Shown here in pieces: positions 2,696 to 52,061 of a DNA stretch of 64,000 nucleotides; within the stretch, counting starts at the first letter, position 1, and each line of letters begins with the position of its first letter. This DNA comes from Escherichia coli (GTDB lineage Bacteria > Pseudomonadota > Gammaproteobacteria > Enterobacterales > Enterobacteriaceae): the NCBI RefSeq assembly GCF_044324875.1, contig NZ_CP172185.1, one strand, 5' to 3'. Below the pieces are notes generated by a model. That model was given only the letters and a program-made list of their open reading frames with translations, had not been told where the DNA came from and did no database searches. The position numbers were made by a program, and so were the translations under genes.

Positions 2696-4294
2696 TTAAC
2701 GTAACGGCATAATGGGTGTGATATGTCCATTATGCCGGGCGGGCGGCGGTTGGCTGCCCGCCAGCCATTTGGGAAAATCACATAGTGGCATCGGCTGTGC
2801 GTACAAATACCCTTGCAAAATATGGACGCCATGACGGCGCAAATATTTCGCCTGTTCTTGCGTTTCCACACCCTCCGCCACCAGTTCAATATTCAGTCTT
2901 TGCCCCAGTGCGATGATGATATCGGTCACCGTCGAGTTAACCGCGTCAGAACCTATAGCTGCGGTAAATGACTTATCAATTTTCAGCACGTCAGGACGTA
3001 ATGTTTCAAGCCAGGAAAACGAGCTGTTGCCGGTGCCGAAGTCATCAATCGCCAGTTTGACGTTTTTACGATGCAGCTCGCGGGCAATCCGATAATCAAC
3101 ATCCAGTAAGGCATCGCGTTCGGTGATTTCGAGGATCAGTTGCTGAATCGGGTGAGCGCTAAACCAGTACTGATTGAGATCTTTTATCAGCACACCACGG
3201 CGAAAATGGCTGGGTGCGACGTTAATGCCAACATGAAACTGACTACTCATTGGGAAAACATGCCGCTGACGGATGGTTTCTGCCATCACATAGCGGGTCA
3301 GTGGCACAATTAAATGATGTTCTTCCGCGATAGGAATAAACACATCCGGTGAAATCCAGCCCTGACGTGGATTGTTCCAGCGCAGCAAAATCTCTACACC
3401 AATACATTGCTGGCTGCGCGCATTAAGCAAAGGCTGGCAGAACAATTCGAACTCATGTTGCGCCAGGCCCAGATTGATCTCGCGGGAAAAGCTCATTCGG
3501 TAAGCGGTCGCCAGCCAGGCGATGTAGCCCACCAGTAAACTTAGCAGTACCGCCAGCGGTAATTGTGTTGGAAGATAGTGCCATGCCAGCGCCGTAGCCC
3601 CCGGGCCATTAACGTTAATGGTAAAAGGAAAGCGTTGCGAAGAAACCTGATAGTTTTCATTGTTTTCAGGTTGCGGAAGGGAATCTACCAGCCCATTACC
3701 ATAGAGCAAATGCCGACTGTCCACCGTCAGGCTGGCGCTACTGATTTGCGGCAGTTGTGGCTCAAGCAGCATTGCCGTCAGTAAGTCGATGTTAATCATC
3801 TCCATGACCCCAGCATTGCTACTGCTCGCTGCAGGCGTCCATTGAATCAAAACCGGACTGCCTTTAATCAGGACACGGTCGATCGTCAGGCGTAAAAGTG
3901 GTTGCGGTGCAGGAAGTTCAGCCAGAATGTCCACGACGGGCACATTGCGATAACCAAAAATGCTGGAGCAATAAAGTGTGCCGTCTTGCACCAGGCCAAT
4001 GGATCGCACAGTTTGGAGTTTTGCCGCCTGTTTACGTAATGGCAAATGGGCGACAGAGCAGGGCAGACCAATCAGCGGAAGCAAGACTTCGCTACCTGCC
4101 TGTAGGGGAAGCAGTACTTTATCTAATTCCTCTACAGCGTGATTAGCGAATTGTACTACCCGTTGTTGATTTAAGTTACGCTGTGAAATAAATCGCACGC
4201 TCAGGGTCGAAGCGAGCGTAACGAGTGCGCAAATCGTACAAACAATCATTCGATTACGGCGATAGGTTTTAATGATCCGTTGTGCTTTTTGCAT
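2696..4294 (-). CDS. pdeD: c-di-GMP phosphodiesterase PdeD (YoaD), CSS-motif periplasmic domain plus EAL domain
   Basis: ORF 2696-4324; start placed at the internal Met (MQKAQRIIK...) to give 532 aa; CSS motif (LYCSSIFGY) and EAL-domain region visible in translation. Confidence 0.88.
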   Translation of the reverse strand: MQKAQRIIKTYRRNRMIVCTICALVTLASTLSVRFISQRNLNQQRVVQFANHAVEELDKVLLPLQAGSEVLLPLIGLPCSVAHLPLRKQAAKLQTVRSIGLVQDGTLYCSSIFGYRNVPVVDILAELPAPQPLLRLTIDRVLIKGSPVLIQWTPAASSSNAGVMEMINIDLLTAMLLEPQLPQISSASLTVDSRHLLYGNGLVDSLPQPENNENYQVSSQRFPFTINVNGPGATALAWHYLPTQLPLAVLLSLLVGYIAWLATAYRMSFSREINLGLAQHEFELFCQPLLNARSQQCIGVEILLRWNNPRQGWISPDVFIPIAEEHHLIVPLTRYVMAETIRQRHVFPMSSQFHVGINVAPSHFRRGVLIKDLNQYWFSAHPIQQLILEITERDALLDVDYRIARELHRKNVKLAIDDFGTGNSSFSWLETLRPDVLKIDKSFTAAIGSDAVNSTVTDIIIALGQRLNIELVAEGVETQEQAKYLRRHGVHILQGYLYAQPMPLCDFPKWLAGSQPPPARHNGHITPIMPLR

Positions 4295-8588: not shown

Positions 8589-9009
8589 ATTCTTATCCTT
8601 AAATTTAACCATGTTATCGATAAGGCTATATATGACCTTAATTTGCATCTAATATCAAAGGGATTATAACGATATGGCACGAGTTAACCTGTTGACATTC
8701 AGGTGTTTTAAAGGTAGCAGCTCATGGTGTGTTATCCAGTAAGAGGGAGAAAATTAACGGTCAGTCCGCACGCTATAACCAGATTGTTCAGCTAAGAAAG
8801 AAAACCAGAGTTGCTAATCAAAGGGCGAACACAACGGCATGGTTATGTTTATTTATATAGCTAGTTTTATAGATGAAATTGAAATTATAAAAATAAATAA
8901 TGAATTAGCAGGAGCATCAACAGTAATAACTTAATCTCTGGTCGATTTATGTAAAACCGACCAGTATTATCGATAAATTATCGTCTGACTTATTTTGCTT
9001 CGATAAAGC

Positions 9010-12149: not shown

Positions 12150-12187
12150 ATCTTAAGAGTATGCCCTGAGAAAAAAGGAGTCGCATC

Positions 12188-12769
12188 ATGGCGGTTCAAA
12201 AGAATGTTATCAAAGGCATACTGGCAGGTACGTTTGCGCTAATGCTGAGCGGTTGTGTTACTGTGCCGGACGCCATTAAAGGCAGCAGTCCCACGCCGCA
12301 ACAAGATTTAGTTCGGGTGATGAGTGCGCCGCAGCTGTACGTTGGTCAGGAGGCTCGCTTTGGTGGCAAAGTGGTTGCGGTACAAAACCAGCAAGGGAAA
12401 ACCCGCCTGGAAATTGCCACCGTACCACTGGACAGCGGAGCCAGACCGACGCTGGGAGAACCTTCTCGCGGTCGCATTTATGCTGATGTGAACGGTTTTC
12501 TGGACCCGGTAGATTTCCGTGGACAACTGGTTACGGTAGTCGGGCCAATCACCGGTGCGATTGACGGCAAAATCGGCAACACGCCCTATAAATTTATGGT
12601 GATGCAGGTAACGGGTTACAAACGTTGGCATTTAACCCAGCAGGTGATTATGCCGCCTCAGCCGATTGATCCATGGTTTTATGGCGGTCGTGGCTGGCCC
12701 TATGGCTACGGCGGATGGGGCTGGTATAATCCCGGCCCCGCGAGAGTACAAACAGTTGTAACTGAATAA
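12188..12769 (+). CDS. yeaY: Slp-family outer-membrane lipoprotein YeaY
   Basis: 193-aa ORF with signal peptide and lipobox (LMLSGC). Confidence 0.88.
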
Positions 12770-22988: not shown

Positions 22989-23046
22989 ATGCTGCAAATC
23001 CCACAGAATTATATTCATACGCGCTCAACGCCTTTCTGGAATAAAC
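22989..23046 (+). pseudogene. yeaR: yeaR 5' fragment (codons 1-19), interrupted by the IS66-family insertion
   Basis: ATG 22989 with GGAGG RBS; MLQIPQNYIHTRSTPFWNK then the frame runs into the IS; the remainder of yeaR resumes in frame at 25496. Confidence 0.85.
23039..23046. repeat. Target-site duplication GAATAAAC (left copy) of the IS66-family insertion
   Basis: Identical 8-mer flanks both IS ends (23039-23046 and 25489-25496). Confidence 0.85.
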
Positions 23047-23083
23047 GTAAGCGTACAGCGAGGGCCGTATTGACGGGGATGTG

Positions 23084-24622
23084 TTATTCAGCTGGCAGTG
23101 CTATGCGCCACGGAAGCAGTTCGCTGACCCGGTTGACCGGCCAGTCTGCTATGACGCCAAGCACATGGCGAAGGTAGCTTTCTGGATCCACGTCATTCAG
23201 TTTGCACGTCCCTATCAGGCTGTACAGTAGCGCTCCCCGCTCACCACCATGGCCAGAGCCGAAGAACAGGAAGTTTTTACGACCCAGACTTACCGCCCGC
23301 AGGGCATTTTCAGCGATGTTGTTGTCGATTTCCACCCAGCCATCGTTCGCATAGTACGTCAGTGCCGGCCACTGGTTAAGTGCGTACGCGAACGCCTTCG
23401 CCAACTCTGAGTGTCGCGACAGGGTCTTCATCTTTTCACGCAACCAGCTTTCCAGGGATTTCAACAGCGGTTTCGTTTTTCGCTGACGTTCAGCAAGCCG
23501 CTGCTCTGCCGGCATTCCCCTTATATCCGCCTCTATGGCGTACAACTGACCGATCTGCTCCAGGGCTTCTTCCGTCAGTGCTGACGGGATGCGGACGTGC
23601 ACATCGTGGATCTTTCGGCGGGCATGAGCCCAGCAGGCAGCTTCCGTTATCCCACCATTGCGATACAGCTCGTTGAACCCGGCGTACGCATCCGCTTGCA
23701 GCACACCGCTGAAGCAAGCAAGATGAGTCTGCGGATGGATGCCTTTTCTGTCCGGGCTGTAAGCGAACCACACTGCAGGTGCCAACGCTGACCCGGCATT
23801 GCGGTCATCACGAACATACGCCCACAACCGCCCGGTCTTCGTCTTCTTATTACCCGGCATCAGTACCTGGACCGGGGTATCATCGGCATGGAGTTTGCCG
23901 TCAGTCATGACATAGCCATGAAGCGCCTCTTCCAGCGGAGACAGCAGCCGGCAGCATGCATCCACCCAGCCCGACAGCAGTGAACGGCTCAGCTCCACAC
24001 CTTGCCGGCCGTATATTTCTGACTGGCGATACAGCGGGGTGTGCTCTGCATACTTCGAGGTCAGCACGCGGGCCAGCAGCCCCGGTCCGGCGATACCCCG
24101 CTCGATGGGCCGCGAAGGTGCAGGTGCCTGCACGATGGCATCGCACTGAGTACAGGCATGTTTTTCCCGTACCGTCCGGATAACCCGGAAGGCGCTACGC
24201 ATCAACTCCAGCTGTTCGGCGGTATCCTCGCCCAGATAGCTCAGTGAACCGCCGCAGTTCGGGCAGCACGGCGCCGCAGGCAACAGTCGCTTTTCGTCAC
24301 GGGGTAGTGATTCAGGGAACGGCTTACGGATGCGGGTCTGACGCAACGGACGCTGTACTGCCGGGTCATACACCCTACCAGTCAGCGTATCGCTCTCTTT
24401 CTGAAGCTGGTTCAGATCGGCTTCCATTTGTGCGATACGGCGGGAGACTTTTTCGGAACGACTGCCGAAGTTCATCCGGCGGAGTTTATCCAGCTGCGCC
24501 TGCAGATGGTCTATTTCGCGCTCCCGGTTGCTCAGCTTTTCCTGCAGGGCGTGGATCAGCGCTTCCTGTTCGGCCAGGCGCTGTTTCAGCAGGAAGATGT
24601 CGTCAGAAGAGATGTCGTTCAT
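23084..24622 (-). CDS. IS66-family transposase TnpC (orf3)
   Basis: 512-aa ORF with N-terminal coiled-coil/leucine zipper, zinc-finger-like CxxC pair and DDE region typical of IS66 TnpC. Confidence 0.9.
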
Positions 24623-24671
24623 AAGCCCGTATTTTACCGGGCTTATTCTGTGACAACCAGGATAAAGAGAT

Positions 24672-25019
24672 TTACAGCATGGTCAGGGAGGTCAGCAGCC
24701 GCTTAGGCTGTCGCCAGTCGATACCTTCCAGCAGCATCGCCAGCTGCGCCTGTGTAAGGAACACTTTGCCATCACGGGCTGACGGCCAGGCGAAGCGCCC
24801 ACGCTCCAGCCGTTTGGTCAGGAGGCACAGTCCGTCACCGGTGGACCACAGCAGTTTAACCTGACTGCCGCTGCGGCCCCGGAAAATGAAAACATGGCCG
24901 GACATGGGATCGTCTTTCAGCGCCGTCTGTACTTTCGCAGCCAGGCCGTTGAAGCCATTTCTCATATCGGTGATACCGGCAACCAGCCAAATTTTGGTCC
25001 CGGAAGGTAAAGGGATCAT
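24672..25019 (-). CDS. IS66-family accessory protein TnpB (orf2)
   Basis: 115-aa [30 protein letters not shown]...; start overlaps the tnpA stop (ATGA) as is typical. Confidence 0.88.
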
Positions 25020-25417
25020 CGCTTCAGTTCCTGTATCAGCAGAGTCAGGAGCTTTTCGCTGACATTGCCATTGAAGCGGAGCGTCCCGTGCCGGAACGTT
25101 ACCTCACAGCTGATACTGAGGGTTTCCGGGTCCTCTGCGAGCGATTCTGGCTGTTCGGCAGCTGCATCGAGAGTCACAGGAAGTAGCTGGGGGCTCTCTG
25201 AAGAAGGTAATAGCAGCTTTCCCTCGCGCCATTGTTGTCGCCATTTGAACAACAGATTGGCGTTAATGCCATTTTCAAGAGCAAGTTTTGAGATGGATAT
25301 CCCGGGTTCACAGGAGGCAGCAACGAGCTGCTGTTTAAATTCGGGAGGATAATTAGGGCAGCCTTTTCGCCTGCCGGGAGTCACATTTTTCTGCATATCT
25401 GACACTTTGGTTCCCAC
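25016..25417 (-). CDS. IS66-family accessory protein TnpA (orf1)
   Basis: 133-aa ORF upstream of tnpB within the same element. Confidence 0.85.
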   Translation of the reverse strand: MGTKVSDMQKNVTPGRRKGCPNYPPEFKQQLVAASCEPGISISKLALENGINANLLFKWRQQWREGKLLLPSSESPQLLPVTLDAAAEQPESLAEDPETLSISCEVTFRHGTLRFNGNVSEKLLTLLIQELKR

Positions 25418-25488
25418 TACTTATTTGGTGGACACCACTTTGTCTAATTCGTCAGATTCTGACCAGACGGTTCAGGCTGTACGCTTAC

Positions 25489-26646: not shown

Positions 26647-27672
26647 TCAGGAATGTAGCGCTGGATGCGCGACAAAAGGTGTTTTCTGTTTGTGTTTTTT
26701 CTCCTGATACATCGCGATATCGGCAGCATGCAGGGCACTGTCTGCATCGGTCGTTTCAGGATCGACTTCTACTATGCCAAGACTGGCACCGGGATAATAC
26801 AAATCAACATCACCTAAGTGATATTCTCCGCGTATTTGCTGCTGAATACGTTCTCGCAGAGACGAAATATCCGCATTCTCGTTGTTCAGTGAAACAACCA
26901 AAAACTCATCACCGCCGAGACGACCAATAACTTCGCCATTTTGCTGGAGCGTATTAAGGCGCTCGCCAACCTGAATGAGGAACAAATCACCACTATTATG
27001 ACCAAAACGATCGTTGATTAATTTGAAGTTATCCAGATCGATAAACGCGATCATTATCTTATGGTTAAGATGTCGGGCGAGAGAAAACAGCGTCGTCAGG
27101 TTTTCAAAAATCGCCCGCCGATTCGGTAGCCCGGTTAACGAGTCGGTATACGATTGCGCAATCAGCGCAGCATTGGCTTCGCGCAGCTGTTCAACCAGTG
27201 CCTCTTTTTGAATATATTGTGCAATCAGTCCGGCGAATAACTGTAAAACCTGTTCCGCGCGTTCACTCCACTGGCGCTTCTCACTACTGGCGGCGCAAAG
27301 CGTGCCATAGAATGATCCATCCGGTAAGTGAATTGGCGTGCTCAGAAATGTGGTGATGCCAAGATTGCGTGCCGCAATACAGTCGCCCCAACGGTCAGGG
27401 ACTTCATCGCTGAAAAAGCAGTTTTCATCAATGGCGCGTTTGCATAACGAGTAATCCCACGAGACGGTAAAATTCTCCGGGATGTGCATTTTCTGGCTGT
27501 TACGGGCAAACATAATATGCTGCAGGCGCGCTTCGACATCCACTTTGGTCAGGTAGGTTGATTCCATATCAGTGACCATTTCCAGCATCTCCAGAAGCTG
27601 TCGGACCAGACTTTCCAGTGACTGTTCTTTGGCAAGGGATTGTGAGACGCGGGCGATAATCTGATCTGACAC
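26647..27672 (-). CDS. dgcP: Diguanylate cyclase DgcP (YeaP), GAF plus GGDEF domains
   Basis: ORF 26647-27801; start assigned to GTG at 27672 (MSDQIIARVSQ...) to give 341 aa; GGDEF motif (RLGGDEFLVV) present. Confidence 0.88.
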   Translation of the reverse strand: MSDQIIARVSQSLAKEQSLESLVRQLLEMLEMVTDMESTYLTKVDVEARLQHIMFARNSQKMHIPENFTVSWDYSLCKRAIDENCFFSDEVPDRWGDCIAARNLGITTFLSTPIHLPDGSFYGTLCAASSEKRQWSERAEQVLQLFAGLIAQYIQKEALVEQLREANAALIAQSYTDSLTGLPNRRAIFENLTTLFSLARHLNHKIMIAFIDLDNFKLINDRFGHNSGDLFLIQVGERLNTLQQNGEVIGRLGGDEFLVVSLNNENADISSLRERIQQQIRGEYHLGDVDLYYPGASLGIVEVDPETTDADSALHAADIAMYQEKKHKQKTPFVAHPALHS

Positions 27673-27854
27673 GAAACAACTCCAGGATACGGCGGGTAAA
27701 TGCTGATTATTTAATCTTTGCAGGCATGATAAAACATCATCAACAAAGATGAAACAAGGCGTAATATGATTTGAGTGAATGTAATAAAAATAGTGCTGCA
27801 AAACAAAACGATACCGCGATACTCTAAGTCTGGATAAATATGTGAGATCAATAA

Positions 27855-28109
27855 ATGAAAATTATCAGTTTTGTTCTGCCTTGCTTGCTGGTCCTGGCTG
27901 GTTGTTCAACCCCTTCTCAGCCAGAAGCACCCAAACCGCCGCAGATTGGTATGGCAAATCCGGCGTCGGTCTATTGCCAGCAGAAGGGCGGGACGCTCAT
28001 TCCAGTGCAGACAGCGCAAGGGGTCAGCAACAATTGCAAATTACCGGGCGGTGAAACGATTGATGAATGGGCATTGTGGCGACGGGACCATCCGGCTGGT
28101 GAAAAATAA
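27855..28109 (+). CDS. yoaF: DUF333 lipoprotein YoaF
   Basis: 84-aa ORF with signal peptide and lipobox (LVLAGCSTP). Confidence 0.88.
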   Translation: MKIISFVLPCLLVLAGCSTPSQPEAPKPPQIGMANPASVYCQQKGGTLIPVQTAQGVSNNCKLPGGETIDEWALWRRDHPAGEK

Positions 28110-28130
28110 CCGCCGGATGCTGTACTAAAA

Positions 28131-28478
28131 TCATAAGCTACGTAGCCAGTCGGCCAGCACCAGCGCATGGTTCTGCGTGGTGTTTTTGGCTGAGTAGAGC
28201 AGGGTCAGCGGCTGTTTTTTGGCGATGTCCGCCAGCCGCTTTCCTTCTTGCTCGTGTTGCGCCAGTTCTGCAAGATATTGCTCGCGAAAGGTTGCAAAAT
28301 CGACGACTTCGCCGTGAAAGGCTTTGCGCAGTTCCGTTGACGGCGTGATTTCTTTATCCCACTCATCAAGGGCTAAATCGGTTTTTTTGATACCGCGCGG
28401 CCAGAGGCGGTCGACCAGTACGCGATATCCATCGCTCTGTTCAGCCGGATCATAAACGCGTTTGCACTGAATATTCAT
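28131..28478 (-). CDS. yeaO: DUF488 family protein YeaO
   Basis: ORF 28131-28499; start placed at MNIQCKRVYDP... to give 115 aa. Confidence 0.85.
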   Translation of the reverse strand: MNIQCKRVYDPAEQSDGYRVLVDRLWPRGIKKTDLALDEWDKEITPSTELRKAFHGEVVDFATFREQYLAELAQHEQEGKRLADIAKKQPLTLLYSAKNTTQNHALVLADWLRSL

Positions 28479-28532
28479 CGTGTTTGTTCTCCCTTCCACG
28501 CATGATTGGTCACGTCACTATAGCACCGGATA

Positions 28533-29714
28533 TTAGCGAATTTCTTTGTCTCTCCCGGCGCAAAGTCCGAAAATCGCCATCAGTAGTGAAAGTATGGCAA
28601 CACCCATCAATGGTATGGACCAGTCACCGTTAGTATCGTGTATTTTACCCATCAGCGGCGGCCCACAGGCTGCCAGCAAATACCCGACGGATTGTGCCAT
28701 CCCCGAGAGTGCCGCCGCCTGATGCGCAGAACTTGCCCGAAGACCAATGAACGTCAATCCCAGTATCATTGTTGCGCCGGAACCAAAGCCGAAAAGCAGA
28801 GTCCAGGTGATCGCGTGCGCTGGCATAAAGCAGAGCCCAACCGCGCCCACTGCGCACATCAAGGCAACGAACGCTGCAATACCACGCTGATCTTTCACAT
28901 GATGTAAGAAAAGTGGGATCAGCAAACCGGGAGCTGCTGTGGCTAGTTGCAGCAAACCATGCAGTGAACCCGCCTGTGCTTCGCTATAGCCGTGACTGAT
29001 GAGGATCGCCGGAAGCCAGCCAATAATCACGTAATAGACCAGTGAGTTGATCCCAAGAAACAATGTTACCTGCCAGGCAAGCGGAGAACGCCAGATACCC
29101 CGAGTATGTAAGGCGCGTGAGGTACTCAAATTTTCATGTTGTTGACTTCGCCACTGTGGCAGCCATAAAAAAAGAGCCAGCAGAGGAAAACACATCAGCA
29201 TGAGCAACGCGCCTTGCCAGCCAAAACCGTTCAAAGCCAGCGGCACGACCATAGCCGATCCCAGTGCCGCTGCAGCTCCCATTGTCAGGGAATATGCGCC
29301 GGTAAGTCTGGCGACGGAATGAGGGAAATCGCTTTTAATTAATCCTGGCAGTAAGACATTGCCTAATGCAATCCCACCGCCAATGACCGCTGTACCGCCA
29401 AATAAGAAGTAAGGCGAAGGGAGAGAGCGAATTGCGATGCCAGCACAGATCAAAAGTAACGCGGCAAACAGGCTACGTTCCATACCAAAACGTCGCGCCA
29501 CCGGGGCAGCCAGAGGTGAGATTAGCGCAAAGGCTAATAATGGCAGGGTGGTCAATAAGCCGGTTTGCGCCGTCGTCAGCGAGTAAGCGGAACGAATCGT
29601 ATCCAGTAACGGTGCTGCGCCGGTAAAGGTGACGCGTAATGTTGTGGCAATCATCAGAATACCAGCGATAAGGACAATCCTGTTTTTGCCGCTTAATGAA
29701 GTTGAACAGGTCAT
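28533..29714 (-). CDS. nimT: MFS transporter NimT (YeaN), 2-nitroimidazole exporter
   Basis: 393-aa 12-TM ORF; divergent from the AraC-type regulator gene nimR. Confidence 0.88.
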   Translation of the reverse strand: MTCSTSLSGKNRIVLIAGILMIATTLRVTFTGAAPLLDTIRSAYSLTTAQTGLLTTLPLLAFALISPLAAPVARRFGMERSLFAALLLICAGIAIRSLPSPYFLFGGTAVIGGGIALGNVLLPGLIKSDFPHSVARLTGAYSLTMGAAAALGSAMVVPLALNGFGWQGALLMLMCFPLLALFLWLPQWRSQQHENLSTSRALHTRGIWRSPLAWQVTLFLGINSLVYYVIIGWLPAILISHGYSEAQAGSLHGLLQLATAAPGLLIPLFLHHVKDQRGIAAFVALMCAVGAVGLCFMPAHAITWTLLFGFGSGATMILGLTFIGLRASSAHQAAALSGMAQSVGYLLAACGPPLMGKIHDTNGDWSIPLMGVAILSLLMAIFGLCAGRDKEIR

Positions 29715-29810
29715 ATGCTTCTCATTGTTACAAACGAGGCTGTACCTTACCGTTTTTATTGTTATGTTGAATCAAGCTAAAATGACAAATTATCGCTAAA
29801 TTCGGACAAA

Positions 29811-30632
29811 ATGATGCACAGGTTGAATCTCAATGGCTATGAACCCGACCGACACCATGAAGCCGCGGTCGCATTTTGTATTCACGCCGGAACGGATGAG
29901 TTAACCAGTCCTGTACATCAGCACCGCAAAGGACAGCTGATACTGGCGCTACATGGTGCAATTACCTGTACGGTGGAAAATGCTTTGTGGATGGTGCCAC
30001 CGCAATATGCGGTTTGGATACCGGGCGGGGTGGAACATAGCAATCAAGTGACAGCTAACGCTGAACTCTGTTTTCTGTTTATCGAACCCAGCGCAGTGAC
30101 AATGCCGACAACCTGTTGCACATTGAAAATATCGCCCTTATGCCGGGAATTAATTTTAACCCTGGCAAACAGAACGTCGACTCAGCGTGCTGAGCCGATG
30201 ACCCGCAGATTAATTCAGGTCCTGTTTGATGAACTCCCTCAGCAGCCACAACAACAGCTGCACCTACCCGTTTCTTCTCATCCTAAAATTCGCGCGATGG
30301 TGGAGATGATGGCGAAAGAGCCCGTCGAGTGGGGGTCATTGGGGCAATGGGCTCGCTTTTTTGCGATGAGTGAACGCAATCTTGCCCGACTGATAGTGAA
30401 AGAGACGGGGTTGAGTTTTCGCCAGTGGCGTCAGCAGTTACAGCTGATTATGGCGCTTCAGGGATTAGTGAAAGGCGATACTGTACAGAAAGTTGCTCAT
30501 ACGCTGGGGTATGATTCAACAACGGCCTTTATTACTATGTTTAAGAAAGGCCTGGGGCAAACGCCAGGCCGATATATTGCGGGATTAACTACTGTTTCCC
30601 CACAATCAGCGAAACCAGACCCGCGGCAATAA
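29811..30632 (+). CDS. nimR: AraC-family transcriptional regulator NimR (YeaM)
   Basis: 273-aa ORF with cupin-like N-terminus and C-terminal AraC HTH. Confidence 0.88.
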
Positions 30633-31035
30633 GCGGGCCAACCGGTACGCCGCGAAACAGCGCCACGCCCAAAACAGTGCCCACCAGCAGCCCGGCGACC
30701 AGTTGCGGCTGGCTGCCCATTAACGTCACGCCGCGCCCACCTAGCCAGGAGACAATAACGCCTACTGCAATTGCCACCAGCGATTTCCAGTTCAGAAACG
30801 AGTGAATCAGGGTTGAGGGCGGTAGCGTGCCGCTGGCGATGGGGGCCATAACGCCAATCGTCAGAATGATTATCCCGATACTTAGCCCCTGTTTTTCAAT
30901 CCACGGGAAAAAGGTGCTTAACGGTGTGACGCGGACAATGATTAACACCAGAATTGAAACGGCGACAGTGGTGTTATGACTGATAAAGCCCAGCGCAGCT
31001 AACCCGAGCAGGATCAGCAAAGTGACATCAAACAT
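30589..31035 (-). CDS. yeaL: DUF441/UPF0756 inner-membrane protein YeaL
   Basis: 148-aa hydrophobic ORF; its 3' end overlaps the 3' end of nimR by 44 bp (convergent). Confidence 0.88.
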
Positions 31036-31204
31036 CGTGGTTTCCTTGCCAAAAAATAATAAGCCTGCTTACTTTACGCTTGCTGCAGGAAGGAAGTAGA
31101 AAATCTTTACGTTTTTTGCATAAAAAATCAGGCGAACTGTCATCAAACTGCAATTTGTGCACGCTAACAATAACGTGAAAACAGCTATCTCCCGGGGGCA
31201 TACT

Positions 31205-31309
31205 ATGAACGATCAAATGTTCGTCGAGACACTGATTATCACGTCATCGTTTTTTGCCATTGCTGTTGTGCTGGTTTTGTCCGTTCTTCTTATCGAACGG
31301 ACAGGCTAG
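31205..31309 (+). CDS. yoaI: Small membrane protein YoaI (34 aa)
   Basis: [37 protein letters not shown]; its stop codon abuts the stop of convergent yeaK. Confidence 0.75.
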
Positions 31310-31813
31310 TTACGCAGTGCGGCGGAAATTGACCAGTTCTGGTTGCGCAATGCGCAAATAATCCGCGGTTTTCAAAATAACGGATTTATCCAGCATGCCT
31401 GCATTGAAGGCGATTTCATCAAATCGTTCGAAGAGTAGGGGATCGGCAACCAGTTTGAGTTTTGGATGGAAGCTGAAAGGGGTGATCGCGCCGAAGACAC
31501 AGCCTGTGAGTTCATCGACTTCCGCCGGGCTGGCCAACGAAGCGCGTAATCCGCCTATATGGCTGGCGAGTTGGCTCAGATCGGCCTGTTGATCGGCCGC
31601 GAGGATCGCCAGAACATGTTGATTTACACCATTGCCTTTGACTTTACATACCAGTGCCTTAGCCCCCTGGCCTAAAGCGGTGCCACGAATTTCTGACACC
31701 GCTTCACATTTACCTACCGCTTCATGGGTAACGACGCGGAAGTCAGCACCTTCTTGTGATAATAAAGCGATTAACCGCTGATGCGTCACGCTTCCTTTAG
31801 CCATTTCAGTCAT
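31310..31813 (-). CDS. yeaK: YbaK/ProX-type aminoacyl-tRNA deacylase YeaK
   Basis: 167-aa ORF MTEMAKGSVTHQRLIALLSQEGADFRVVTHEAVGKCEAV.... Confidence 0.88.
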   Translation of the reverse strand: MTEMAKGSVTHQRLIALLSQEGADFRVVTHEAVGKCEAVSEIRGTALGQGAKALVCKVKGNGVNQHVLAILAADQQADLSQLASHIGGLRASLASPAEVDELTGCVFGAITPFSFHPKLKLVADPLLFERFDEIAFNAGMLDKSVILKTADYLRIAQPELVNFRRTA

Positions 31814-31855
31814 TTCATGCTCCTGAGATTACAAGCAAACAACCACAGAAGGTTA

Positions 31856-33346
31856 TCATGAACGGCTGTTTTTGTTCTGCTTATTGACATATAAACGCTC
31901 ATCGGAAGCTTTATACGCATCATGTAACGTATCGTTTTCTTTCATCGCGTAAATACCGGAAGAGAAGCCGATCTCTTTCTGCGGCGCGATATGTTGCAGA
32001 CGTTTTTCGATACGTTCAGGCAGTTGTGCTGCAATTTGCGGCGTCGAATCGACTAGAATGATGCAGAATTCATCGCCACCGAGTCGGATGGCATAATCAC
32101 TTTTACGAATCGACTGTTTAATCGCCTGAGCTAATAACGTAATCGCTAAATCCCCCTCCTGATGACCGAGGGTGTCATTTATTTGCTTTAACTTGTCCAT
32201 GTCAATTGCAATAAACATCACCGAAGAACCGGATTGCACCAGTTTTTGCAACCGCTGCTCCAGTTCAGGGGTTAAAATTTTGCGATTATACAGTCCTGTC
32301 ATCGCATCACTAATATTTTCTCGCGACACATTTTGGTATAAACGGAAGTGCATCCGCACCATATTCAGCAAAATTAACGCCGTCAAAATCCAGAACAGAA
32401 CGCTTTTCCACGAAGACGTGATAAAGTAAAGAATATCAATGGATAACGAGACACGAATACCGCCCGGTAAGTCATGGACGTAACTGACATACTGGAACAG
32501 ATTATCTTCGCTCTGGTTGATGATAATGTCGCGCCCCGAATCGGTATCGGTTAGCGTGACATTGAGAAAACGCCAGAGGAGAGGGCGGTCATGAGTGTAA
32601 AAGATATTCCGCAGATTGTTTTTGTTAATATCCAGCAGCACAATCCCTTTTAGCTGCCCTGCGACATATACCGGCGTCAGCAAACTCATCACGTTCTGTT
32701 TAGTACGCTGATCCTGGTAAATGCTCGATAAAACGGTACGCCCGGTAAATACCTTTTCAATATCTTTGCGATCGATGCCAATACTTCCTGACTGCAGGAA
32801 AGACCAGTTATTCATCGCAAAGTATTCAACATTAACCGGCTCATAAAAATAGACATAGCGGTCATTGAGATCGAGATAATAGTGAAATTTCTCTTCGGCC
32901 ATCCCAAGACCTGAACCGTAATCATCCTGGTGGCGGTTGCCTTCCACTGCCTGATCAAAAGCGGGTAATAGTGCTGCAGCTTCCACAATTGTGTCGCAGT
33001 CAGTGGATGCGGTTTGTAGTGTGCCGCGTAAGCCAGGGTATTTATGGGCAGTCAGGTTTAAGCCATGGGTATTATTGGCAGACTCAAAAGCCTCGCAGAT
33101 GGCGCGCCGCTGTTCTGGCGACACTTCCGACTGCTCAGCAGCGAGAGCGCGCATCACATGCGCGGCAATACTCTGATTCTGATACTTATCATAAAGAAAG
33201 GAGGAGTCTGCTCTCTGCACGATATAGCGCAGATAGGCACTCATTGCTCTGTCACTGGCGACAAGTTCAAAAATAAGGAAGGAAGATGTCAGCACAATGA
33301 CACTTGCGGCGATAAAATGCCGGAGCATTCTATGGTGCAATTTCAT
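31856..33346 (-). CDS. dgcJ: Diguanylate cyclase DgcJ (YeaJ), membrane-anchored periplasmic sensor plus GGDEF
   Basis: ORF 31856-33526; start placed at MKLHHRMLRHF... to give 496 aa; GGDEF motif (RLGGDEFCII) present. Confidence 0.88.
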   Translation of the reverse strand: MKLHHRMLRHFIAASVIVLTSSFLIFELVASDRAMSAYLRYIVQRADSSFLYDKYQNQSIAAHVMRALAAEQSEVSPEQRRAICEAFESANNTHGLNLTAHKYPGLRGTLQTASTDCDTIVEAAALLPAFDQAVEGNRHQDDYGSGLGMAEEKFHYYLDLNDRYVYFYEPVNVEYFAMNNWSFLQSGSIGIDRKDIEKVFTGRTVLSSIYQDQRTKQNVMSLLTPVYVAGQLKGIVLLDINKNNLRNIFYTHDRPLLWRFLNVTLTDTDSGRDIIINQSEDNLFQYVSYVHDLPGGIRVSLSIDILYFITSSWKSVLFWILTALILLNMVRMHFRLYQNVSRENISDAMTGLYNRKILTPELEQRLQKLVQSGSSVMFIAIDMDKLKQINDTLGHQEGDLAITLLAQAIKQSIRKSDYAIRLGGDEFCIILVDSTPQIAAQLPERIEKRLQHIAPQKEIGFSSGIYAMKENDTLHDAYKASDERLYVNKQNKNSRS

Positions 33347-33526
33347 GATAAATGGCACTCCTTCGGTTAGTGAAACGAGAAAACCAGATAAAGTTCGATT
33401 GCGGCCTGGCACAGGGGCGCTAATTATACTCATCTCTGCGCCGCTGGGGAGGGGAAATTTAGGGGTAATAGTAATAAATTGTATGCAAAAGCCACGCAAA
33501 AAGCATGGCTCTGAATATTTTTGCAC

Positions 33527-35002
33527 TTAAATATGATGAATAATCACTTTGTTGCCCCCCTCGCTTTTCGCTTCGCGTAAGGCTTTATCTGCTTCCGTCA
33601 TGACAAGCGAGATATTACGTGTGTCACCCGTTGAAAAAACCGTGCCAATACTGATGGTCATTTGCTCAGGAACATCATATCTGTTACTAAAGCCGGTCAG
33701 GAGTTCGACATTTTTACGCATACGTTCCGCAATGATTTTTGCCTGGGCACTATTCAGTTCGGTAAATAGCAAGCCAAACACCTCACCCTCCAGTCGCGCT
33801 AAAATATCATCGGGGCGGATGCTTTGCTGGATAATATCGACAATTGAAACCAGCACTTTATCACCCACACGATGTCCCCATTGGGCATTGATGCGTTTGA
33901 ACTGATTAATATCAACCAGCATGACACAGAAGTCCTTAACAACAGGTCGCGACAATAATGACTCTACGCTGTTGAAAAAGTAGCGCCGATTATAAATATT
34001 GGTCAGCACATCATGAACTGCCAGTTTGCTGGAGAGTTGCAGTTCCTGAAAAATGTTATAAATCAGAAAAGACACAACAAACAGTTTACTGGAGACTTCA
34101 ATCCCGCGACTGATATACCAGATGGTGTAATTATACTCATCCAGAGTTAGTAGAAGTAAGTTGCAGCATAGCGATGCCAGACATAATAATGCTATTAACG
34201 GCCATAGTTCGCTGGCTAATCGTGTACGCATGATAATAAAGAACAGTAAAAATGCCCACAGACAAACCAATATTTTTGTATAGTTGATTCCCCAGGTCGC
34301 AGTATGGTTGTCCGGACAGTAATCGACGACATACAAAGAATAGTCAGCGTTATAACTGCTCAGATTGTGTGCCAGAAGGGGAAAAACTAAAAAAGGAATC
34401 AGCGCCAGTAACAGAATGCCAGTTTTTTTCTTATTGTTGTCAAGGATGTTGTCTTTCCCATAACAAAAGAGCGCCAGCGAGGTTAAACAAATGAAACTGA
34501 GTTGGCGGAAAATATAGAAAATAGAAACATCATTCGACTTTGTCTGGATCAGTGTACTGCCGTTGATTGGTTTATGGATAATTACAATGGTTTCAACTAA
34601 ATAGATAAGGCCACTTAAAAATGCAAGGCTTAAAATGAGTGTTGGTAAAATTTGTTTGTTAGTGAAATACTTCATTAACATGAAAAGAAAAATGACGGCG
34701 TTAAGGAAAAACAAAGCCACAACAACCATCAGGTAATTCATCTGTGGGATGAGTTTTACATTCGTGTTTTCGTTATATAAGGTAGTAATGCAAAATAAAA
34801 TTAACGTCAGCAATAAGCTGAAAATAAAAAAGCCTTGAGCTTTTAATTTTTGTGTACCCATAGAAGCCATAAAAAGGAGAGCAATGTGAGTGCTGGATTT
34901 TATTGATGGCAGAGATATATAGTTTTGACCAGGATCAATTTTCGTTAACGATAAAAAATATTTAAAGAATAACCCCAGGGAAACACGTGTTGACCGAATC
35001 AT
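33527..35002 (-). CDS. dgcI: GGDEF-domain membrane protein DgcI (YeaI) with degenerate active-site motif EGEVF
   Basis: 491-aa ORF, multiple TM segments, C-terminal GGDEF domain with EGEVF in place of GG(D/E)EF (ARLEGEVFGLLF); very AT-rich coding sequence. Confidence 0.88.
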   Translation of the reverse strand: MIRSTRVSLGLFFKYFLSLTKIDPGQNYISLPSIKSSTHIALLFMASMGTQKLKAQGFFIFSLLLTLILFCITTLYNENTNVKLIPQMNYLMVVVALFFLNAVIFLFMLMKYFTNKQILPTLILSLAFLSGLIYLVETIVIIHKPINGSTLIQTKSNDVSIFYIFRQLSFICLTSLALFCYGKDNILDNNKKKTGILLLALIPFLVFPLLAHNLSSYNADYSLYVVDYCPDNHTATWGINYTKILVCLWAFLLFFIIMRTRLASELWPLIALLCLASLCCNLLLLTLDEYNYTIWYISRGIEVSSKLFVVSFLIYNIFQELQLSSKLAVHDVLTNIYNRRYFFNSVESLLSRPVVKDFCVMLVDINQFKRINAQWGHRVGDKVLVSIVDIIQQSIRPDDILARLEGEVFGLLFTELNSAQAKIIAERMRKNVELLTGFSNRYDVPEQMTISIGTVFSTGDTRNISLVMTEADKALREAKSEGGNKVIIHHI

Positions 35003-35148
35003 TTTTCCGAATGATTGTTTTCTGGAACTAAATTGTGTAAAGGTTATGCTGTCATATTTAAAGCGATTGTAAGCTAATGTATGTAATAAATGAGATAATT
35101 TACAGTGAGCTAAAAATCAGCCAGGCGATAATGACCCGGCTGATAGTT

Positions 35149-46700: not shown

Positions 46701-47777
46701 ATGAAAGCACTGGCTCGGTTTGGCAAAGCCTTTGGCGGCTACAAGATGATCGATGTCCCACAACCCATTTGTGGCCCGGAAGATGTAGTGATTGAAATTA
46801 AAGCCGCGGCAATCTGCGGCGCAGACATGAAGCACTACAATGTCGATAGCGGTTCTGATGAGTTTAACTCTATCCGCGGCCATGAGTTCGCAGGTTGTAT
46901 TGCGCAGGTTGGTGAAAAAGTCAAAGACTGGAAAGTGGGGCAACGCGTCGTGTCGGATAACAGCGGTCACGTCTGCGGCGTTTGTCCGGCCTGTGAACAA
47001 GGTGATTTTCTGTGTTGTACAGAAAAAGTAAACCTTGGTCTGGATAACAATACCTGGGGCGGTGGTTTTTCCAAATATTGTCTTGTTCCTGGTGAAATTC
47101 TCAAAATTCATCGTCATGCGTTGTGGGAAATCCCTGATGGTGTTGATTATGAGGACGCAGCCGTACTTGACCCTATCTGTAATGCCTACAAATCCATCGC
47201 GCAGCAATCGAAATTCCTTCCTGGTCAGGATGTGGTCGTCATCGGCACTGGCCCACTCGGGCTGTTCTCCGTACAAATGGCGCGGATTATGGGGGCGGTA
47301 AATATCGTCGTCGTTGGTCTGCAAGAAGATGTGGCGGTCAGCTTTCCGGTTGCAAAAGAACTGGGTGCGACGACTGTAGTAAATGGTTCTACCGAAGATG
47401 TGGTGGCGCGCTGCCAGCAAATTTGTGGCAAAGACAATCTGGGACTGGTGATTGAATGCTCCGGTGCCAATATCGCACTGAAACAAGCCATCGAAATGCT
47501 CCGTCCGAACGGGGAAGTGGTACGCGTTGGAATGGGCTTCAAACCTCTTGATTTCTCGATTAATGACATTACCGCCTGGAACAAAAGCATCATTGGGCAT
47601 ATGGCCTATGACTCCACCTCATGGCGTAACGCTCTCCGGCTATTAGCCAGCGGCGCTATCAACGTCAAACCGATGATCACGCATCGTATCGGCCTGTCGC
47701 AATGGCGCGAAGGGTTTGATGCGATGGTCGATAAAACCGCAATCAAAGTGATCATGACTTACGACTTTGATGAATAA
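46701..47777 (+). CDS. ydjL: Zinc-dependent alcohol/polyol dehydrogenase YdjL (MDR family)
   Basis: 358-aa ORF with zinc-binding Cys/His pattern (GHEFAG; CGVCPACEQGD) and Rossmann GxGxxG. Confidence 0.88.
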   Translation: MKALARFGKAFGGYKMIDVPQPICGPEDVVIEIKAAAICGADMKHYNVDSGSDEFNSIRGHEFAGCIAQVGEKVKDWKVGQRVVSDNSGHVCGVCPACEQGDFLCCTEKVNLGLDNNTWGGGFSKYCLVPGEILKIHRHALWEIPDGVDYEDAAVLDPICNAYKSIAQQSKFLPGQDVVVIGTGPLGLFSVQMARIMGAVNIVVVGLQEDVAVSFPVAKELGATTVVNGSTEDVVARCQQICGKDNLGLVIECSGANIALKQAIEMLRPNGEVVRVGMGFKPLDFSINDITAWNKSIIGHMAYDSTSWRNALRLLASGAINVKPMITHRIGLSQWREGFDAMVDKTAIKVIMTYDFDE

Positions 47778-47803
47778 CTACTCTCCTGAAGGAACGTTAT
47801 CGC

Positions 47804-49183: not shown

Positions 49184-49199
49184 TACTGGTGGATTCAAA

Positions 49200-50243: not shown

Positions 50244-50263
50244 TTAATACGGGAGAACAGAAT

Positions 50264-51100: not shown

Positions 51101-51104
51101 TGAT

Positions 51105-52052: not shown

Positions 52053-52061
52053 TGAAGGCAA

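What the first reader, a model, noticed from the sequence alone, without database searches (positions are those of the whole stretch)
26647..35002. Cluster of c-di-GMP signalling genes, including a degenerate GGDEF protein
Within 8.4 kb are dgcP (GAF-GGDEF), dgcJ (sensor-GGDEF) and dgcI, and the EAL phosphodiesterase pdeD lies at 2696-4294. dgcJ and dgcI are adjacent, strongly AT-rich paralogues on the same strand, which suggests duplication or horizontal origin. DgcI carries EGEVF instead of GG(D/E)EF, so it is probably catalytically impaired and may act as a receptor or scaffold.
Basis: partly seen in the sequence, partly recalled or inferred. Interest (0 to 1): 0.4.

Follow-up and report, generated by a model that had tools for sequence, protein, structure and literature searches.

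The report
Known E. coli c-di-GMP gene neighbourhood
This is the ordinary, well-studied yeaI–yeaJ–yeaP stretch of the E. coli core chromosome. The "degenerate GGDEF protein" is CdgI (YeaI), already published as an inactive cyclase that binds c-di-GMP, so the finding is correct in substance but not new.

Summary
The window is E. coli chromosome, and the region is present in 5421 of 5426 complete genomes.

Three corrections:
- **Name.** The EGEVF gene is cdgI (yeaI), not dgcI. DgcI is YliF, encoded elsewhere.
- **Paralogy.** CdgI and DgcJ share only the GGDEF domain, at 28% identity. That is no closer than either is to DgcP, so this is not a tandem duplication. CdgI's nearest full-length relatives are MASE4-GGDEF proteins with a GGEEF motif, 40-46% identical; the literature names DgcT and DgcX as its family.
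- **Composition.** Only cdgI is strongly AT-rich (39% GC, lowest of 47 genes); dgcJ is not an outlier. The AT-richness is equally present in E. albertii and Citrobacter orthologues, so it is old.

The receptor idea is already published. Sarenko 2017 reported a degenerate A-site, an intact I-site, c-di-GMP binding by the purified domain and contacts with other GGDEF domains.

Added here:
- Syntenic Citrobacter orthologues still carry GGEEF. Escherichia carries E/D-G-x-x-F with drifting positions 3-4, an invariant RPDD, and dN/dS of 0.07-0.10.
- The annotated first 47 codons evolve like non-coding DNA and contain a conserved FNR box (known from ChIP) plus a -10 element.

Verdict: already known, low interest.

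The parts
2696..4294 (-). pdeD (yoaD): CSS-motif periplasmic domain plus EAL phosphodiesterase domain; EIL(L)R motif at 3380-3394
   Evidence: Pfam CSS-motif 7.6e-42 and EAL 2.7e-58; translation; motif coordinates
26647..27672 (-). dgcP (yeaP): cytoplasmic GAF-GGDEF diguanylate cyclase, GTG start; A-site GGDEF at 26902-26916; no RxxD I-site (QNGE at that position)
   Evidence: Pfam GAF_2 1.4e-10 and GGDEF 5.6e-41; alignment; 1 amino-acid difference from K-12; annotated dgcP in 042, K-12 and WP8-S18
31856..33346 (-). dgcJ (yeaJ): GAPES1 periplasmic sensor plus GGDEF cyclase; I-site RKSD at 32096-32107; A-site GGDEF at 32066-32080
   Evidence: Pfam GAPES1 7e-151 and GGDEF 3.4e-40; 1 amino-acid difference from K-12; motif coordinates. 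The 556-aa ORF is a mechanical upstream extension.
33347..33526 (-). cdgI-dgcJ spacer, 180 nt, identical to K-12. It is stop-free and in frame with both genes in E. coli only
   Evidence: Not in frame in E. albertii, and interrupted by stops in the Citrobacter-like loci, so treated as coincidence. No terminator-like site found in it.
33527..35002 (-). cdgI (yeaI, b1785) as annotated (491 aa): MASE4 membrane domain plus degenerate GGDEF domain.
   Evidence: Pfam MASE4 1.6e-48 and GGDEF 9.1e-45; annotated cdgI; present at >=80% coverage in 5408 of 5426 complete E. coli genomes
33527..34861 (-). Probable real cdgI coding sequence (444 aa, start at M48, MGTQKLK...)
   Evidence: This is the only ATG conserved in all 10 orthologous loci. 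Upstream of it, variable sites fall 24/24/22 by codon position with 10 gap columns; downstream they fall 97/54/278 with 0 gaps. Upstream of M48 the frame stays open for only 13 codons in E. albertii and Escherichia sp. SCPM, and in-frame stops lie just upstream of the start in the Citrobacter-like loci.
33776..33790 (-). Degenerate A-site EGEVF (residues 405-409 of the 491-aa numbering), in place of GG(D/E)EF
   Evidence: It aligns to GGEEF of solved cyclases. Variants DGEVF, EGDVF, EGNVF, EGEEF and EGKRF occur in other Escherichia-like orthologues; GGEEF in Citrobacter orthologues.
33806..33817 (-). Intact I-site RPDD (RxxD), five residues before the A-site
   Evidence: invariant in all Escherichia orthologues; c-di-GMP binding by the purified domain reported in PMC5635695
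34925..34938 (-). FNR-type box TTGATCCTGGTCAA, lying inside the annotated cdgI ORF (codons 22-27)
   Evidence: 1 mismatch; not significant on its own. All 9 half-site positions are invariant in 10 loci while the spacer varies, and the box is a perfect consensus in the two Citrobacter-like loci. The same 14-mer is listed as an FNR site with a ChIP peak in Myers 2013 Tables S5 and S6.
34897..34902 (-). Conserved -10-like hexamer TAAAAT (TAGAAT in E. albertii and Citrobacter), 22 nt after the FNR box. This puts the box centre near -41.5 of a predicted start site at about 34890.
   Evidence: 5 of 6 positions invariant. The start site is inferred, not measured.
35116..35144 (-). Intrinsic terminator-like hairpin plus T-run after yeaH, separating yeaH from cdgI
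   Evidence: 11-bp stem, 6 GC pairs; hairpin arms conserved in the alignment

Best explanation
The region is the conserved yeaG-yeaH-cdgI-dgcJ-yeaK...dgcP segment of the E. coli core chromosome. It holds separately encoded c-di-GMP genes, not one operon or module.

The active enzymes. DgcP (GAF-GGDEF) and DgcJ (GAPES1-GGDEF) are canonical diguanylate cyclases. PdeD, about 22 kb away, is a CSS-EAL phosphodiesterase.

CdgI. The third GGDEF gene is cdgI (yeaI). It encodes a membrane protein with a MASE4 domain and a GGDEF domain that descended from an active MASE4-GGEEF cyclase. In the Escherichia lineage the active-site loop changed to E/D-G-x-x-F, which should abolish GTP condensation. The RxxD inhibitory site was kept, so the domain still binds c-di-GMP.

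Most likely mechanism. CdgI acts as a c-di-GMP-sensing, non-catalytic partner that contacts the GGDEF domains of other proteins.

Expression. It is probably made only under special conditions. Its promoter region carries an FNR box that is bound in vivo. Published work also implicates AppY, RstA and CsrA.

What is shown and what is inferred:
- Shown here: the gene identities, domains and motifs, the composition, the synteny, the evolutionary pattern of the motif, and purifying selection.
- Taken from the literature: c-di-GMP binding, GGDEF-GGDEF contacts, lack of expression in aerobic laboratory culture, and FNR ChIP binding.
- Inferred: loss of catalysis, the regulatory role of the contacts, the FNR-dependent promoter geometry, and the M48 start.
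For: Identity: 99.7% to E. coli 042 over 8.4 kb; present in 5421 of 5426 genomes; annotated dgcP, dgcJ and cdgI.

Domains and motifs.

Descent from an active cyclase:
- Syntenic orthologues in Citrobacter sp. Awk 4, NCU1 and SRR11412819 (57-61% identical) carry GGEEF.
- MASE4 relatives at 40-46% identity also carry GGEEF.
- All Escherichia-like orthologues carry E or D at position 1, with E/D/N/K at position 3 and V/E/R at position 4.
- RPDD is invariant in every Escherichia-genus locus examined; the unassigned 64% homologue P0018 has RPED, still RxxD.

Still functional:
- dN/dS is 0.07-0.10 in both the MASE4 and GGDEF halves across five Escherichia species.
- The gene is present at >=80% coverage in 5408 of 5426 complete genomes.

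Published biochemistry (PMC5635695): degenerate A-site, intact I-site, purified GGDEF(CdgI) binds c-di-GMP, strong heteromeric GGDEF contacts, not detectable under standard conditions, toxic when overproduced. PMC10459773 calls it 'catalytically non-functional'.

Not one operon: the genes are separated by unrelated genes on both strands, and a terminator follows yeaH.

FNR: the conserved box plus -10 element, and the Myers 2013 ChIP peak and predicted site.
Against: Some literature treats YeaI as an active cyclase.
- Spurbeck 2012 lists it among proteins with 'verified diguanylate cyclase activity'. In no-salt LB the yeaI biofilm defect was complemented by the cyclase WspR, although in glycerol medium it was not.
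- PMC6824119 cites Sanchez-Torres 2011 for YeaI raising c-di-GMP in BW25113. I could not read that paper.
- Among the papers I could read, none reports an in vitro cyclase assay of CdgI.

FNR binding did not give an FNR-dependent expression change in anaerobic glucose minimal medium (Myers 2013 Table S9).

The sigma-70 peak nearest the gene start in that study maps about 80 nt upstream of the annotated ATG. That is roughly 190 nt upstream of my predicted start site (my coordinate conversion), so it does not sit on the promoter I predict.

The physiological partners and output of CdgI are unknown.
Confidence: 0.85

Rival explanations
1. CdgI is a weak or conditionally active diguanylate cyclase despite the EGEVF motif, and its phenotypes come from c-di-GMP it synthesises.
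For: Spurbeck 2012 counts YeaI among verified cyclases, and WspR complemented the yeaI biofilm defect in no-salt LB. PMC6824119 cites Sanchez-Torres 2011 for a YeaI-dependent rise in c-di-GMP. Other substrate-binding positions are kept in the alignment to solved cyclases: the first Asp of the DxD-type motif, the Asn of FKxIN and the GD motif.
Against: Position 1 of the motif is never Gly in any Escherichia orthologue. Positions 3 and 4 vary freely (E/D/N/K and V/E/R), and these carry the metal-binding and catalytic acidic residues in active enzymes (the residue roles are established GGDEF knowledge, not tested here). WspR did not complement in glycerol medium. The Hengge and Romling groups class it as inactive. 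In vivo changes in c-di-GMP could be indirect, through its contacts with active cyclases.
Confidence: 0.08
2. cdgI and dgcJ arose by tandem duplication, or arrived together by recent horizontal transfer, as their adjacency and AT-richness suggested to the first reader.
For: The genes are adjacent and on the same strand. cdgI is the most AT-rich gene of the window. The yeaH-dgcJ junction is variable among Enterobacteriaceae: empty, or filled with unrelated genes. cdgI is found there only in Escherichia and a few Citrobacter.
Against: The two share only 28% identity, in the GGDEF domain alone, and have different sensor domains. dgcJ is not a compositional outlier. Synteny with cdgI is kept in a Citrobacter lineage at 57-61% protein identity, with the same low GC of 0.37-0.38, so the gene has been at this locus since before the Escherichia species diverged. 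It is core in E. coli. CdgI's closest full-length relatives are MASE4-GGDEF proteins.
Confidence: 0.05
3. cdgI is a decaying pseudogene-like remnant with no function of its own.
For: The motif is degenerate. The protein is undetectable in laboratory culture. Truncated alleles (281-345 aa) form sizeable sequence clusters. The gene is deleted in Shigella flexneri 2457T. dN/dS is 2-3 times higher than for dgcJ.
Against: dN/dS of 0.07-0.10 in both domains indicates clear purifying selection. There are no gaps in the coding alignment of seven Escherichia sequences, and third-position periodicity is strong. RPDD is invariant. The gene is present at >=80% coverage in 99.7% of complete genomes. The purified domain binds c-di-GMP.
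Confidence: 0.04
4. The four genes form a functional c-di-GMP module, kept together because they act in one pathway.
For: Clustering is mildly unlikely by chance (P about 0.02-0.03). The cdgI-dgcJ...dgcP arrangement is conserved in Escherichia and one Citrobacter lineage. The CdgI GGDEF domain contacts several other GGDEF domains.
Against: The genes are separated by unrelated genes on both strands (nimR/nimT, yeaK, yeaL, yeaO, yoaF). Many genera have dgcJ without cdgI, or neither. Known outputs differ: DgcJ acts locally on NfrB. The statistical test is post hoc.
Confidence: 0.1

Closest known systems
CdgI (YeaI, b1785) of E. coli K-12
   Same: Same gene and same locus. 1476 nt with 25 nucleotide and 5 amino-acid differences, all within the first 57 annotated codons. 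Same EGEVF and RPDD motifs.
   Different: Nothing of substance. This window's allele is identical to that of strains 042 and WP8-S18-ESBL-07.
DgcT (YcdT) and DgcX, the active MASE4-GGDEF cyclases of E. coli
   Same: Same MASE4 + GGDEF architecture. The literature names them as CdgI's family. MASE4-GGDEF homologues of 40-46% identity in the search all carry GGEEF and RxxD.
   Different: They keep GGEEF and are active. CdgI has EGEVF. I did not identify which of the 40-46% hits are DgcT or DgcX themselves.
Syntenic CdgI orthologues of Citrobacter sp. Awk 4, NCU1 and SRR11412819
   Same: Same position between yeaH and dgcJ, same domains, the same low GC (0.37-0.38), and the same FNR box and -10 element upstream.
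   Different: Canonical GGEEF A-site and the LDIDHFK/IND motifs, so they are probably still active cyclases. 57-61% identity.
Degenerate GGDEF proteins that bind c-di-GMP at the I-site, such as PopA of Caulobacter and PelD of Pseudomonas (recalled from general knowledge)
   Same: A non-canonical A-site with a retained RxxD that binds c-di-GMP. CdgI binding is reported in PMC5635695.
   Different: Different partner domains and outputs. CdgI's output is unknown. No sequence or structure comparison with these proteins was made here.
DgcI (YliF)
   Same: Also a GGDEF protein of E. coli that is poorly expressed and toxic when overproduced.
   Different: A different gene at another locus, with an intact GGDEF motif (signature table).

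Membership tests
GGDEF-domain proteins (Pfam PF00990) | Significant match to the GGDEF domain model over its full length | tested here: met
   DgcP 5.6e-41, DgcJ 3.4e-40, CdgI 9.1e-45; each covers about 160 of 161 model positions. The CdgI domain aligns end to end with solved cyclases including PleD.
Catalytically competent diguanylate cyclases | GG(D/E)EF active-site motif | tested here: not met
   This verdict is for CdgI only, which has EGEVF with E or D at position 1 in all Escherichia orthologues. DgcP and DgcJ both meet this feature with GGDEF.
Catalytically competent diguanylate cyclases | c-di-GMP synthesis from GTP in vitro | not testable with these tools
   Among the papers I could read, none reports an in vitro assay of CdgI. 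In vivo reports conflict.
I-site (RxxD) c-di-GMP-binding GGDEF domains | RxxD five residues upstream of the A-site | tested here: met
   CdgI RPDD and DgcJ RKSD. DgcP lacks it, with QNGE at that position. Conserved in all CdgI orthologues.
I-site (RxxD) c-di-GMP-binding GGDEF domains | Direct binding of c-di-GMP | not testable with these tools
   Reported for the purified GGDEF domain of CdgI in PMC5635695, Fig. S4B.
MASE4-GGDEF family (DgcT, DgcX, CdgI) | N-terminal MASE4 integral-membrane domain followed by GGDEF | tested here: met
   Pfam MASE4 1.6e-48 at residues 88-319 and GGDEF at 328-485. Full-length homologues all have PF17158 + PF00990.
CdgI (YeaI) orthologue group | Near-identity to K-12 b1785 and the position between yeaH and dgcJ | tested here: met
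   98.3% nucleotide identity with 5 amino-acid differences; same neighbours.
   28% identity over about 150 residues of GGDEF only, and different sensor domains. CdgI's closest full-length relatives are MASE4 proteins.
Class II FNR-dependent promoter (upstream of cdgI) | TTGAT-N4-ATCAA box centred near -41.5 of the transcription start | tested here: inconclusive
   The box matches 9 of 10 consensus positions in E. coli and 10 of 10 in the Citrobacter-like loci. A conserved -10 element lies 22 nt downstream, which gives -40.5 to -41.5. The start site itself is predicted, not measured.
Class II FNR-dependent promoter (upstream of cdgI) | FNR occupancy in vivo and FNR-dependent transcription | not testable with these tools
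   The literature shows a ChIP peak and a predicted site (Myers 2013 Tables S5, S6). The gene is nevertheless listed among peaks without an FNR-dependent expression change (Table S9).

The most novel reading that the evidence does not exclude
CdgI may be an anaerobically expressed, c-di-GMP-gated decoy GGDEF protein. On this reading it evolved from an active MASE4 cyclase within the Escherichia lineage. Its real promoter, an FNR class II type, lies inside the mis-annotated first 47 codons. When made, for example in the gut, it would dampen or redirect neighbouring DgcJ and other cyclases through GGDEF-GGDEF heteromers in response to c-di-GMP. This would name the 'still unknown conditions' for its expression and give the protein a defined role.
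Probability: 0.12. Interest if true: 0.45.

Novelty: already known. Interest (0 to 1): 0.15.

Why it matters
It matters little as a discovery, because the genes, the degenerate motif and the receptor idea are all in the literature and in RefSeq annotation.

The useful residue is practical:
1. The gene should be called cdgI, not dgcI.
2. The annotated E. coli start codon is very probably 47 codons too far upstream. This places an experimentally bound FNR site in the promoter rather than 'within yeaI'.
3. Citrobacter orthologues with GGEEF offer a natural active/inactive pair for testing how a cyclase becomes a receptor.

Together these give a concrete and cheap hypothesis, anaerobic FNR-linked expression, for a protein whose inducing conditions are reported as unknown.

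Tried and rejected
1. Stop-codon read-through or fusion of cdgI into dgcJ. The TAA of cdgI is in frame with dgcJ, and the 180-nt spacer is stop-free in E. coli. However, the frame differs in E. albertii and stops occur in the Citrobacter-like loci. Rejected as coincidence.
2. H-NS silencing as the reason for AT-richness and lack of expression. 'yeaI' does not occur in the H-NS peak table of Myers 2013, and the site is flagged 'None' for H-NS. Not supported.
3. The FNR box as significant within the window alone. There are 5 one-mismatch matches against 3.5 expected. Not significant by itself, so only the comparative and ChIP evidence counts.
4. Remnants of cdgI in Citrobacter species with 1-2 kb between yeaH and dgcJ. 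The gap holds other, unrelated ORFs that I did not identify, with no MASE4 remnant.
5. Reading Sanchez-Torres 2011 (PMC3158426) for the YeaI activity claim. The paper is not held. A full-text search for 'EGEVF' found nothing.
6. Recent transfer of cdgI between Escherichia and Citrobacter. Rejected because CdgI divergence (57-61%) matches that of the neighbouring DgcJ (63%).


Full report
**What is there**

The window is Escherichia coli chromosome.
- The 8.4-kb stretch 26647-35002 matches 5421 of 5426 complete E. coli genomes. The best match is 99.7%, to strain 042.
- RefSeq annotation of the matching regions gives this gene order: dgcP, yoaF, yeaO, nimT, nimR, yeaL, yoaI, yeaK, dgcJ, cdgI, yeaH, yeaG. 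The sources are strains 042, K-12 MG1655 and WP8-S18-ESBL-07.

Pfam scans confirm the architectures on the minus strand:

| Gene | Window coordinates | Domains |
|---|---|---|
| dgcP | 26647-27672 | GAF + GGDEF |
| dgcJ | 31856-33346 | GAPES1 + GGDEF |
| EGEVF gene | 33527-35002 | MASE4 + GGDEF |
| pdeD | 2696-4294 | CSS-motif + EAL |

Alignment of the three GGDEF domains gave these motifs:

| Protein | I-site | A-site |
|---|---|---|
| DgcP | none (QNGE) | GGDEF |
| DgcJ | RKSD | GGDEF |
| third protein | RPDD | EGEVF (residues 405-409, window 33776-33790) |

The proteins are almost identical to those of K-12, with 1, 1 and 5 amino-acid differences respectively.

**Correction of the name**

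The EGEVF gene is cdgI (formerly yeaI, b1785), not dgcI. K-12 RefSeq calls it 'putative c-di-GMP binding protein CdgI'. Sarenko et al. 2017 state that DgcI and CdgI were 'previously yliF and yeaI, respectively' (PMC5635695). The Shigella paper that studies 'dgcI' concerns yliF, and it lists cdgI (yeaI) as deleted in S. flexneri 2457T (PMC11327459).

The genes are adjacent and on the same strand. The rest of the claim needs qualifying.
- DgcJ and CdgI align only over the GGDEF domain, at 28% identity. That equals DgcP-DgcJ (28%) and is below DgcP-CdgI (31%).
- Their sensor domains belong to different families.
- CdgI's full-length relatives are MASE4-GGDEF proteins. The literature names DgcT and DgcX as its family.

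Tandem duplication is therefore not supported.

On composition, cdgI is a real outlier. It has GC 0.390, the lowest of 47 genes in the window (z = -3.1). It also has the lowest GC at codon positions 1+2. Its GC3 lies 4.3 standard errors below the value expected from its amino-acid content, rank 1 of 47. dgcJ is not an outlier, with GC 0.457 and rank 13 of 47.

**Horizontal origin**

The yeaG-yeaH-cdgI-dgcJ-yeaK...dgcP arrangement is also found outside E. coli.
- It occurs in E. albertii.
- With one extra gene (a GATase-domain ORF between nimT and yeaO), it also occurs in Citrobacter sp. Awk 4 and a related assembly.
- In the Citrobacter-like loci CdgI is 57-61% and DgcJ 63% identical to the E. 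coli proteins.
- cdgI is just as AT-rich in those genomes: 0.374, 0.383 and 0.380, against locus averages of 0.47-0.50.

A scan of 80 Enterobacteriaceae species around yeaH showed how the junction varies.
- cdgI sits between yeaH and dgcJ only in Escherichia species. The few Citrobacter carriers came from the separate look-ups, not from this scan.
- Most Citrobacter and Kluyvera species have yeaH followed directly by dgcJ, with a gap of 136-160 bp.
- In several other species the gap holds unrelated ORFs.
- Many genera lack both genes.

So cdgI occupies a variable junction and may well have been acquired once. That event predates the divergence of the Escherichia species. The low GC has persisted and is not a mark of recent transfer. 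Within E. coli the gene is core, at >=80% coverage in 5408 of 5426 genomes.

**The degenerate motif**

- Properties of the protein: Sarenko et al. 2017 describe a degenerate A-site and an intact I-site. They showed that the purified GGDEF domain binds c-di-GMP. They also found strong heteromeric contacts with several other GGDEF domains.
- Expression: the protein is undetectable under standard conditions, and the isolated domain is toxic when overproduced.

Cimdins-Ahne et al. 2023 call it 'catalytically non-functional'.

My comparative analysis adds the following motif pattern.

| Orthologue group | A-site | I-site |
|---|---|---|
| Syntenic Citrobacter orthologues | GGEEF (with LDIDHFK/IND motifs) | RSED / RSDD |
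| MASE4 relatives at 40-46% identity | GGEEF | RxxD |
| Escherichia and Escherichia-like orthologues | EGEVF, DGEVF, EGDVF, EGNVF, EGEEF, EGKRF | RPDD (RPED in the unassigned 64% homologue P0018) |

- Position 1 is never Gly in the Escherichia-like group. Positions 3 and 4 drift; in active enzymes these carry the acidic residues (established GGDEF knowledge, not tested here).
- The gene is nevertheless under purifying selection. dN/dS is 0.07-0.10 in both halves across five Escherichia species. The comparison values are 0.02-0.04 for dgcJ, 0.04-0.05 for dgcP and 0.01 for yeaH.

This is the pattern expected for an enzyme that lost catalysis and kept another function.

**Contrary evidence**

- Spurbeck et al. 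2012 list YeaI among cyclases with 'verified' activity. They complemented one yeaI phenotype with the cyclase WspR, although not the phenotype in glycerol medium.
- Another paper cites Sanchez-Torres 2011 for a YeaI-dependent rise in c-di-GMP. I could not read the primary paper.
- Such in vivo effects could be indirect, through CdgI's contacts with active cyclases.
- Among the papers I could read, none reports an in vitro assay.

**Is it a 'cluster'?**

Placing 29 GGDEF/EAL genes at random on a 4.64-Mb circle gives the following probabilities.

| Event | Probability |
|---|---|
| Some three genes within 7.5 kb | 2.7% |
| Some four genes within 31 kb | 2.2% |
| Some adjacent pair | 26% |

The clustering is therefore mildly unusual, but the test is post hoc. 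The genes are separated by unrelated genes on both strands, and yeaH ends in a good terminator. The known outputs also differ. DgcJ acts locally on the NfrB exopolysaccharide synthase needed for phage N4 infection (PMC8669469). I treat the region as a neighbourhood, not a module.

**By-products: the cdgI start codon**

In an alignment of ten orthologous loci, the only ATG conserved in all is M48 of the annotated 491-aa ORF (window 34861).

| Region (7 Escherichia sequences) | Variable sites at codon positions 1/2/3 | Test against uniform | Gap columns |
|---|---|---|---|
| Annotated codons 1-47 | 24 / 24 / 22 | p = 0.94 | 10 |
| From M48 onward | 97 / 54 / 278 | p = 1e-43 | 0 |

- E. albertii, Escherichia sp. 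SCPM and the Citrobacter-like loci have stops or frame changes upstream of M48.
- All five amino-acid differences from K-12 lie in the first 57 annotated codons.

The annotated N-terminus therefore behaves as non-coding DNA.

**By-products: the FNR box**

- Inside the annotated N-terminus lies TTGATCCTGGTCAA (34925-34938).
- All nine half-site positions are invariant across the ten loci, while the central positions vary. The box is a perfect FNR consensus in the two Citrobacter-like loci.
- A conserved TAAAAT/TAGAAT lies 22 nt downstream. Conservation of this block against the rest of the spacer gives Fisher p = 1.5e-4.
- That spacing puts the box centre at about -41.5 of a predicted start near 34890. 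This is the class II FNR geometry, which I take from established knowledge.

A one-mismatch box is not significant in the window on its own. However, Myers et al. 2013 list exactly this 14-mer as a predicted FNR site 'Within yeaI' with a ChIP peak. They also report higher anaerobic sigma-70 occupancy at two yeaI positions. They found no FNR-dependent change in yeaI expression in anaerobic glucose minimal medium (Tables S2, S5, S6 and S9).

Other published inputs:
- AppY overproduction induces cdgI 11-fold and gives a ChIP peak inside the gene.
- RstA binds the yeaI promoter in EHEC.
- CsrA repression is cited.

So FNR binding is known. The promoter geometry, the start-codon reassignment and anaerobic induction are my inferences.

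**Verdict**

- The receptor interpretation is right but already published.
- The duplication and horizontal-transfer interpretation is not supported.
- Nothing here is a new kind of system. Interest is low.

Noticed in passing
window 34862-35002 (minus strand): The first 47 codons of the annotated 491-aa cdgI ORF evolve like non-coding DNA. Variable sites fall 24/24/22 by codon position with 10 gap columns, against 97/54/278 and no gaps downstream. The only start conserved across ten loci is M48 at 34861, so the E. coli start annotation is probably 141 nt too long.
   Followed up: yes
window 34897-34938 (minus strand): A conserved FNR-type box, TTGATCCTGGTCAA, with a -10-like TAAAAT 22 nt downstream, giving class II geometry. 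The same 14-mer carries an FNR ChIP peak in Myers 2013, but without an FNR-dependent expression change there. It suggests anaerobic control of a gene whose inducing conditions are reported as unknown.
   Followed up: partly
window about 34110-34160 (inside cdgI): By my coordinate conversion (v2 + about 1976 nt), a sigma-70 ChIP peak that rises 26-fold anaerobically ('within yeaI', Myers 2013 Table S2) falls within about 45 nt of the published AppY ChIP peak (v3 1871229). This may be an internal or antisense promoter, or an anaerobic promoter for dgcJ.
   Followed up: no
window 33347-33529: The cdgI TAA stop is in frame with dgcJ, and the 180-nt spacer has no stop codon. The spacer is identical in K-12. 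The arrangement is not conserved in E. albertii or the Citrobacter-like loci, so it is probably coincidence.
   Followed up: yes
proteins P0026, P0035, P0013, P0019, P0023: Rare E. coli alleles fuse the N-terminal part of cdgI in frame to dgcJ (532 and 560 aa). Truncated cdgI products of 281-345 aa that lack the GGDEF domain form clusters of 249-934 member sequences. I did not check whether these are lineage-specific pseudogenes or assembly artefacts.
   Followed up: no
window about 23000-25420: An IS66-family element (three ORFs: HTH_Tnp_1, TnpB_IS66 and the DDE_Tnp_IS66 transposase) is inserted between leuE and yeaR. It is absent from strains 042, K-12 and WP8-S18-ESBL-07 at this site.
   Followed up: partly
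loci L014-L063, yeaH-dgcJ junction: The junction downstream of yeaH varies across Enterobacteriaceae. It is empty (136-160 bp), holds cdgI, or holds other ORFs I did not identify (a recurring 256-aa plus 136-aa ORF pair in several Citrobacter). Many genera lack dgcJ as well.
   Followed up: partly
window 46701-55413 (plus strand): A run of genes with low GC (0.43-0.49), low GC3 and strong positive GC skew corresponds to the ydjL-ydjE sugar-catabolism cluster. Its synonymous AT bias is comparable to that of cdgI.
   Followed up: no
locus L007 (E. albertii) 11834-12725; loci L003 and L004: E. albertii lacks nimR-nimT between yeaL and yeaO. The Citrobacter-like loci carry an extra GATase-domain gene between nimT and yeaO.
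   Followed up: no
window 8001-9000: A 1-kb bin with GC 0.412 lies in a stretch where no ORF of 150 aa or more was kept. Not examined.
   Followed up: no
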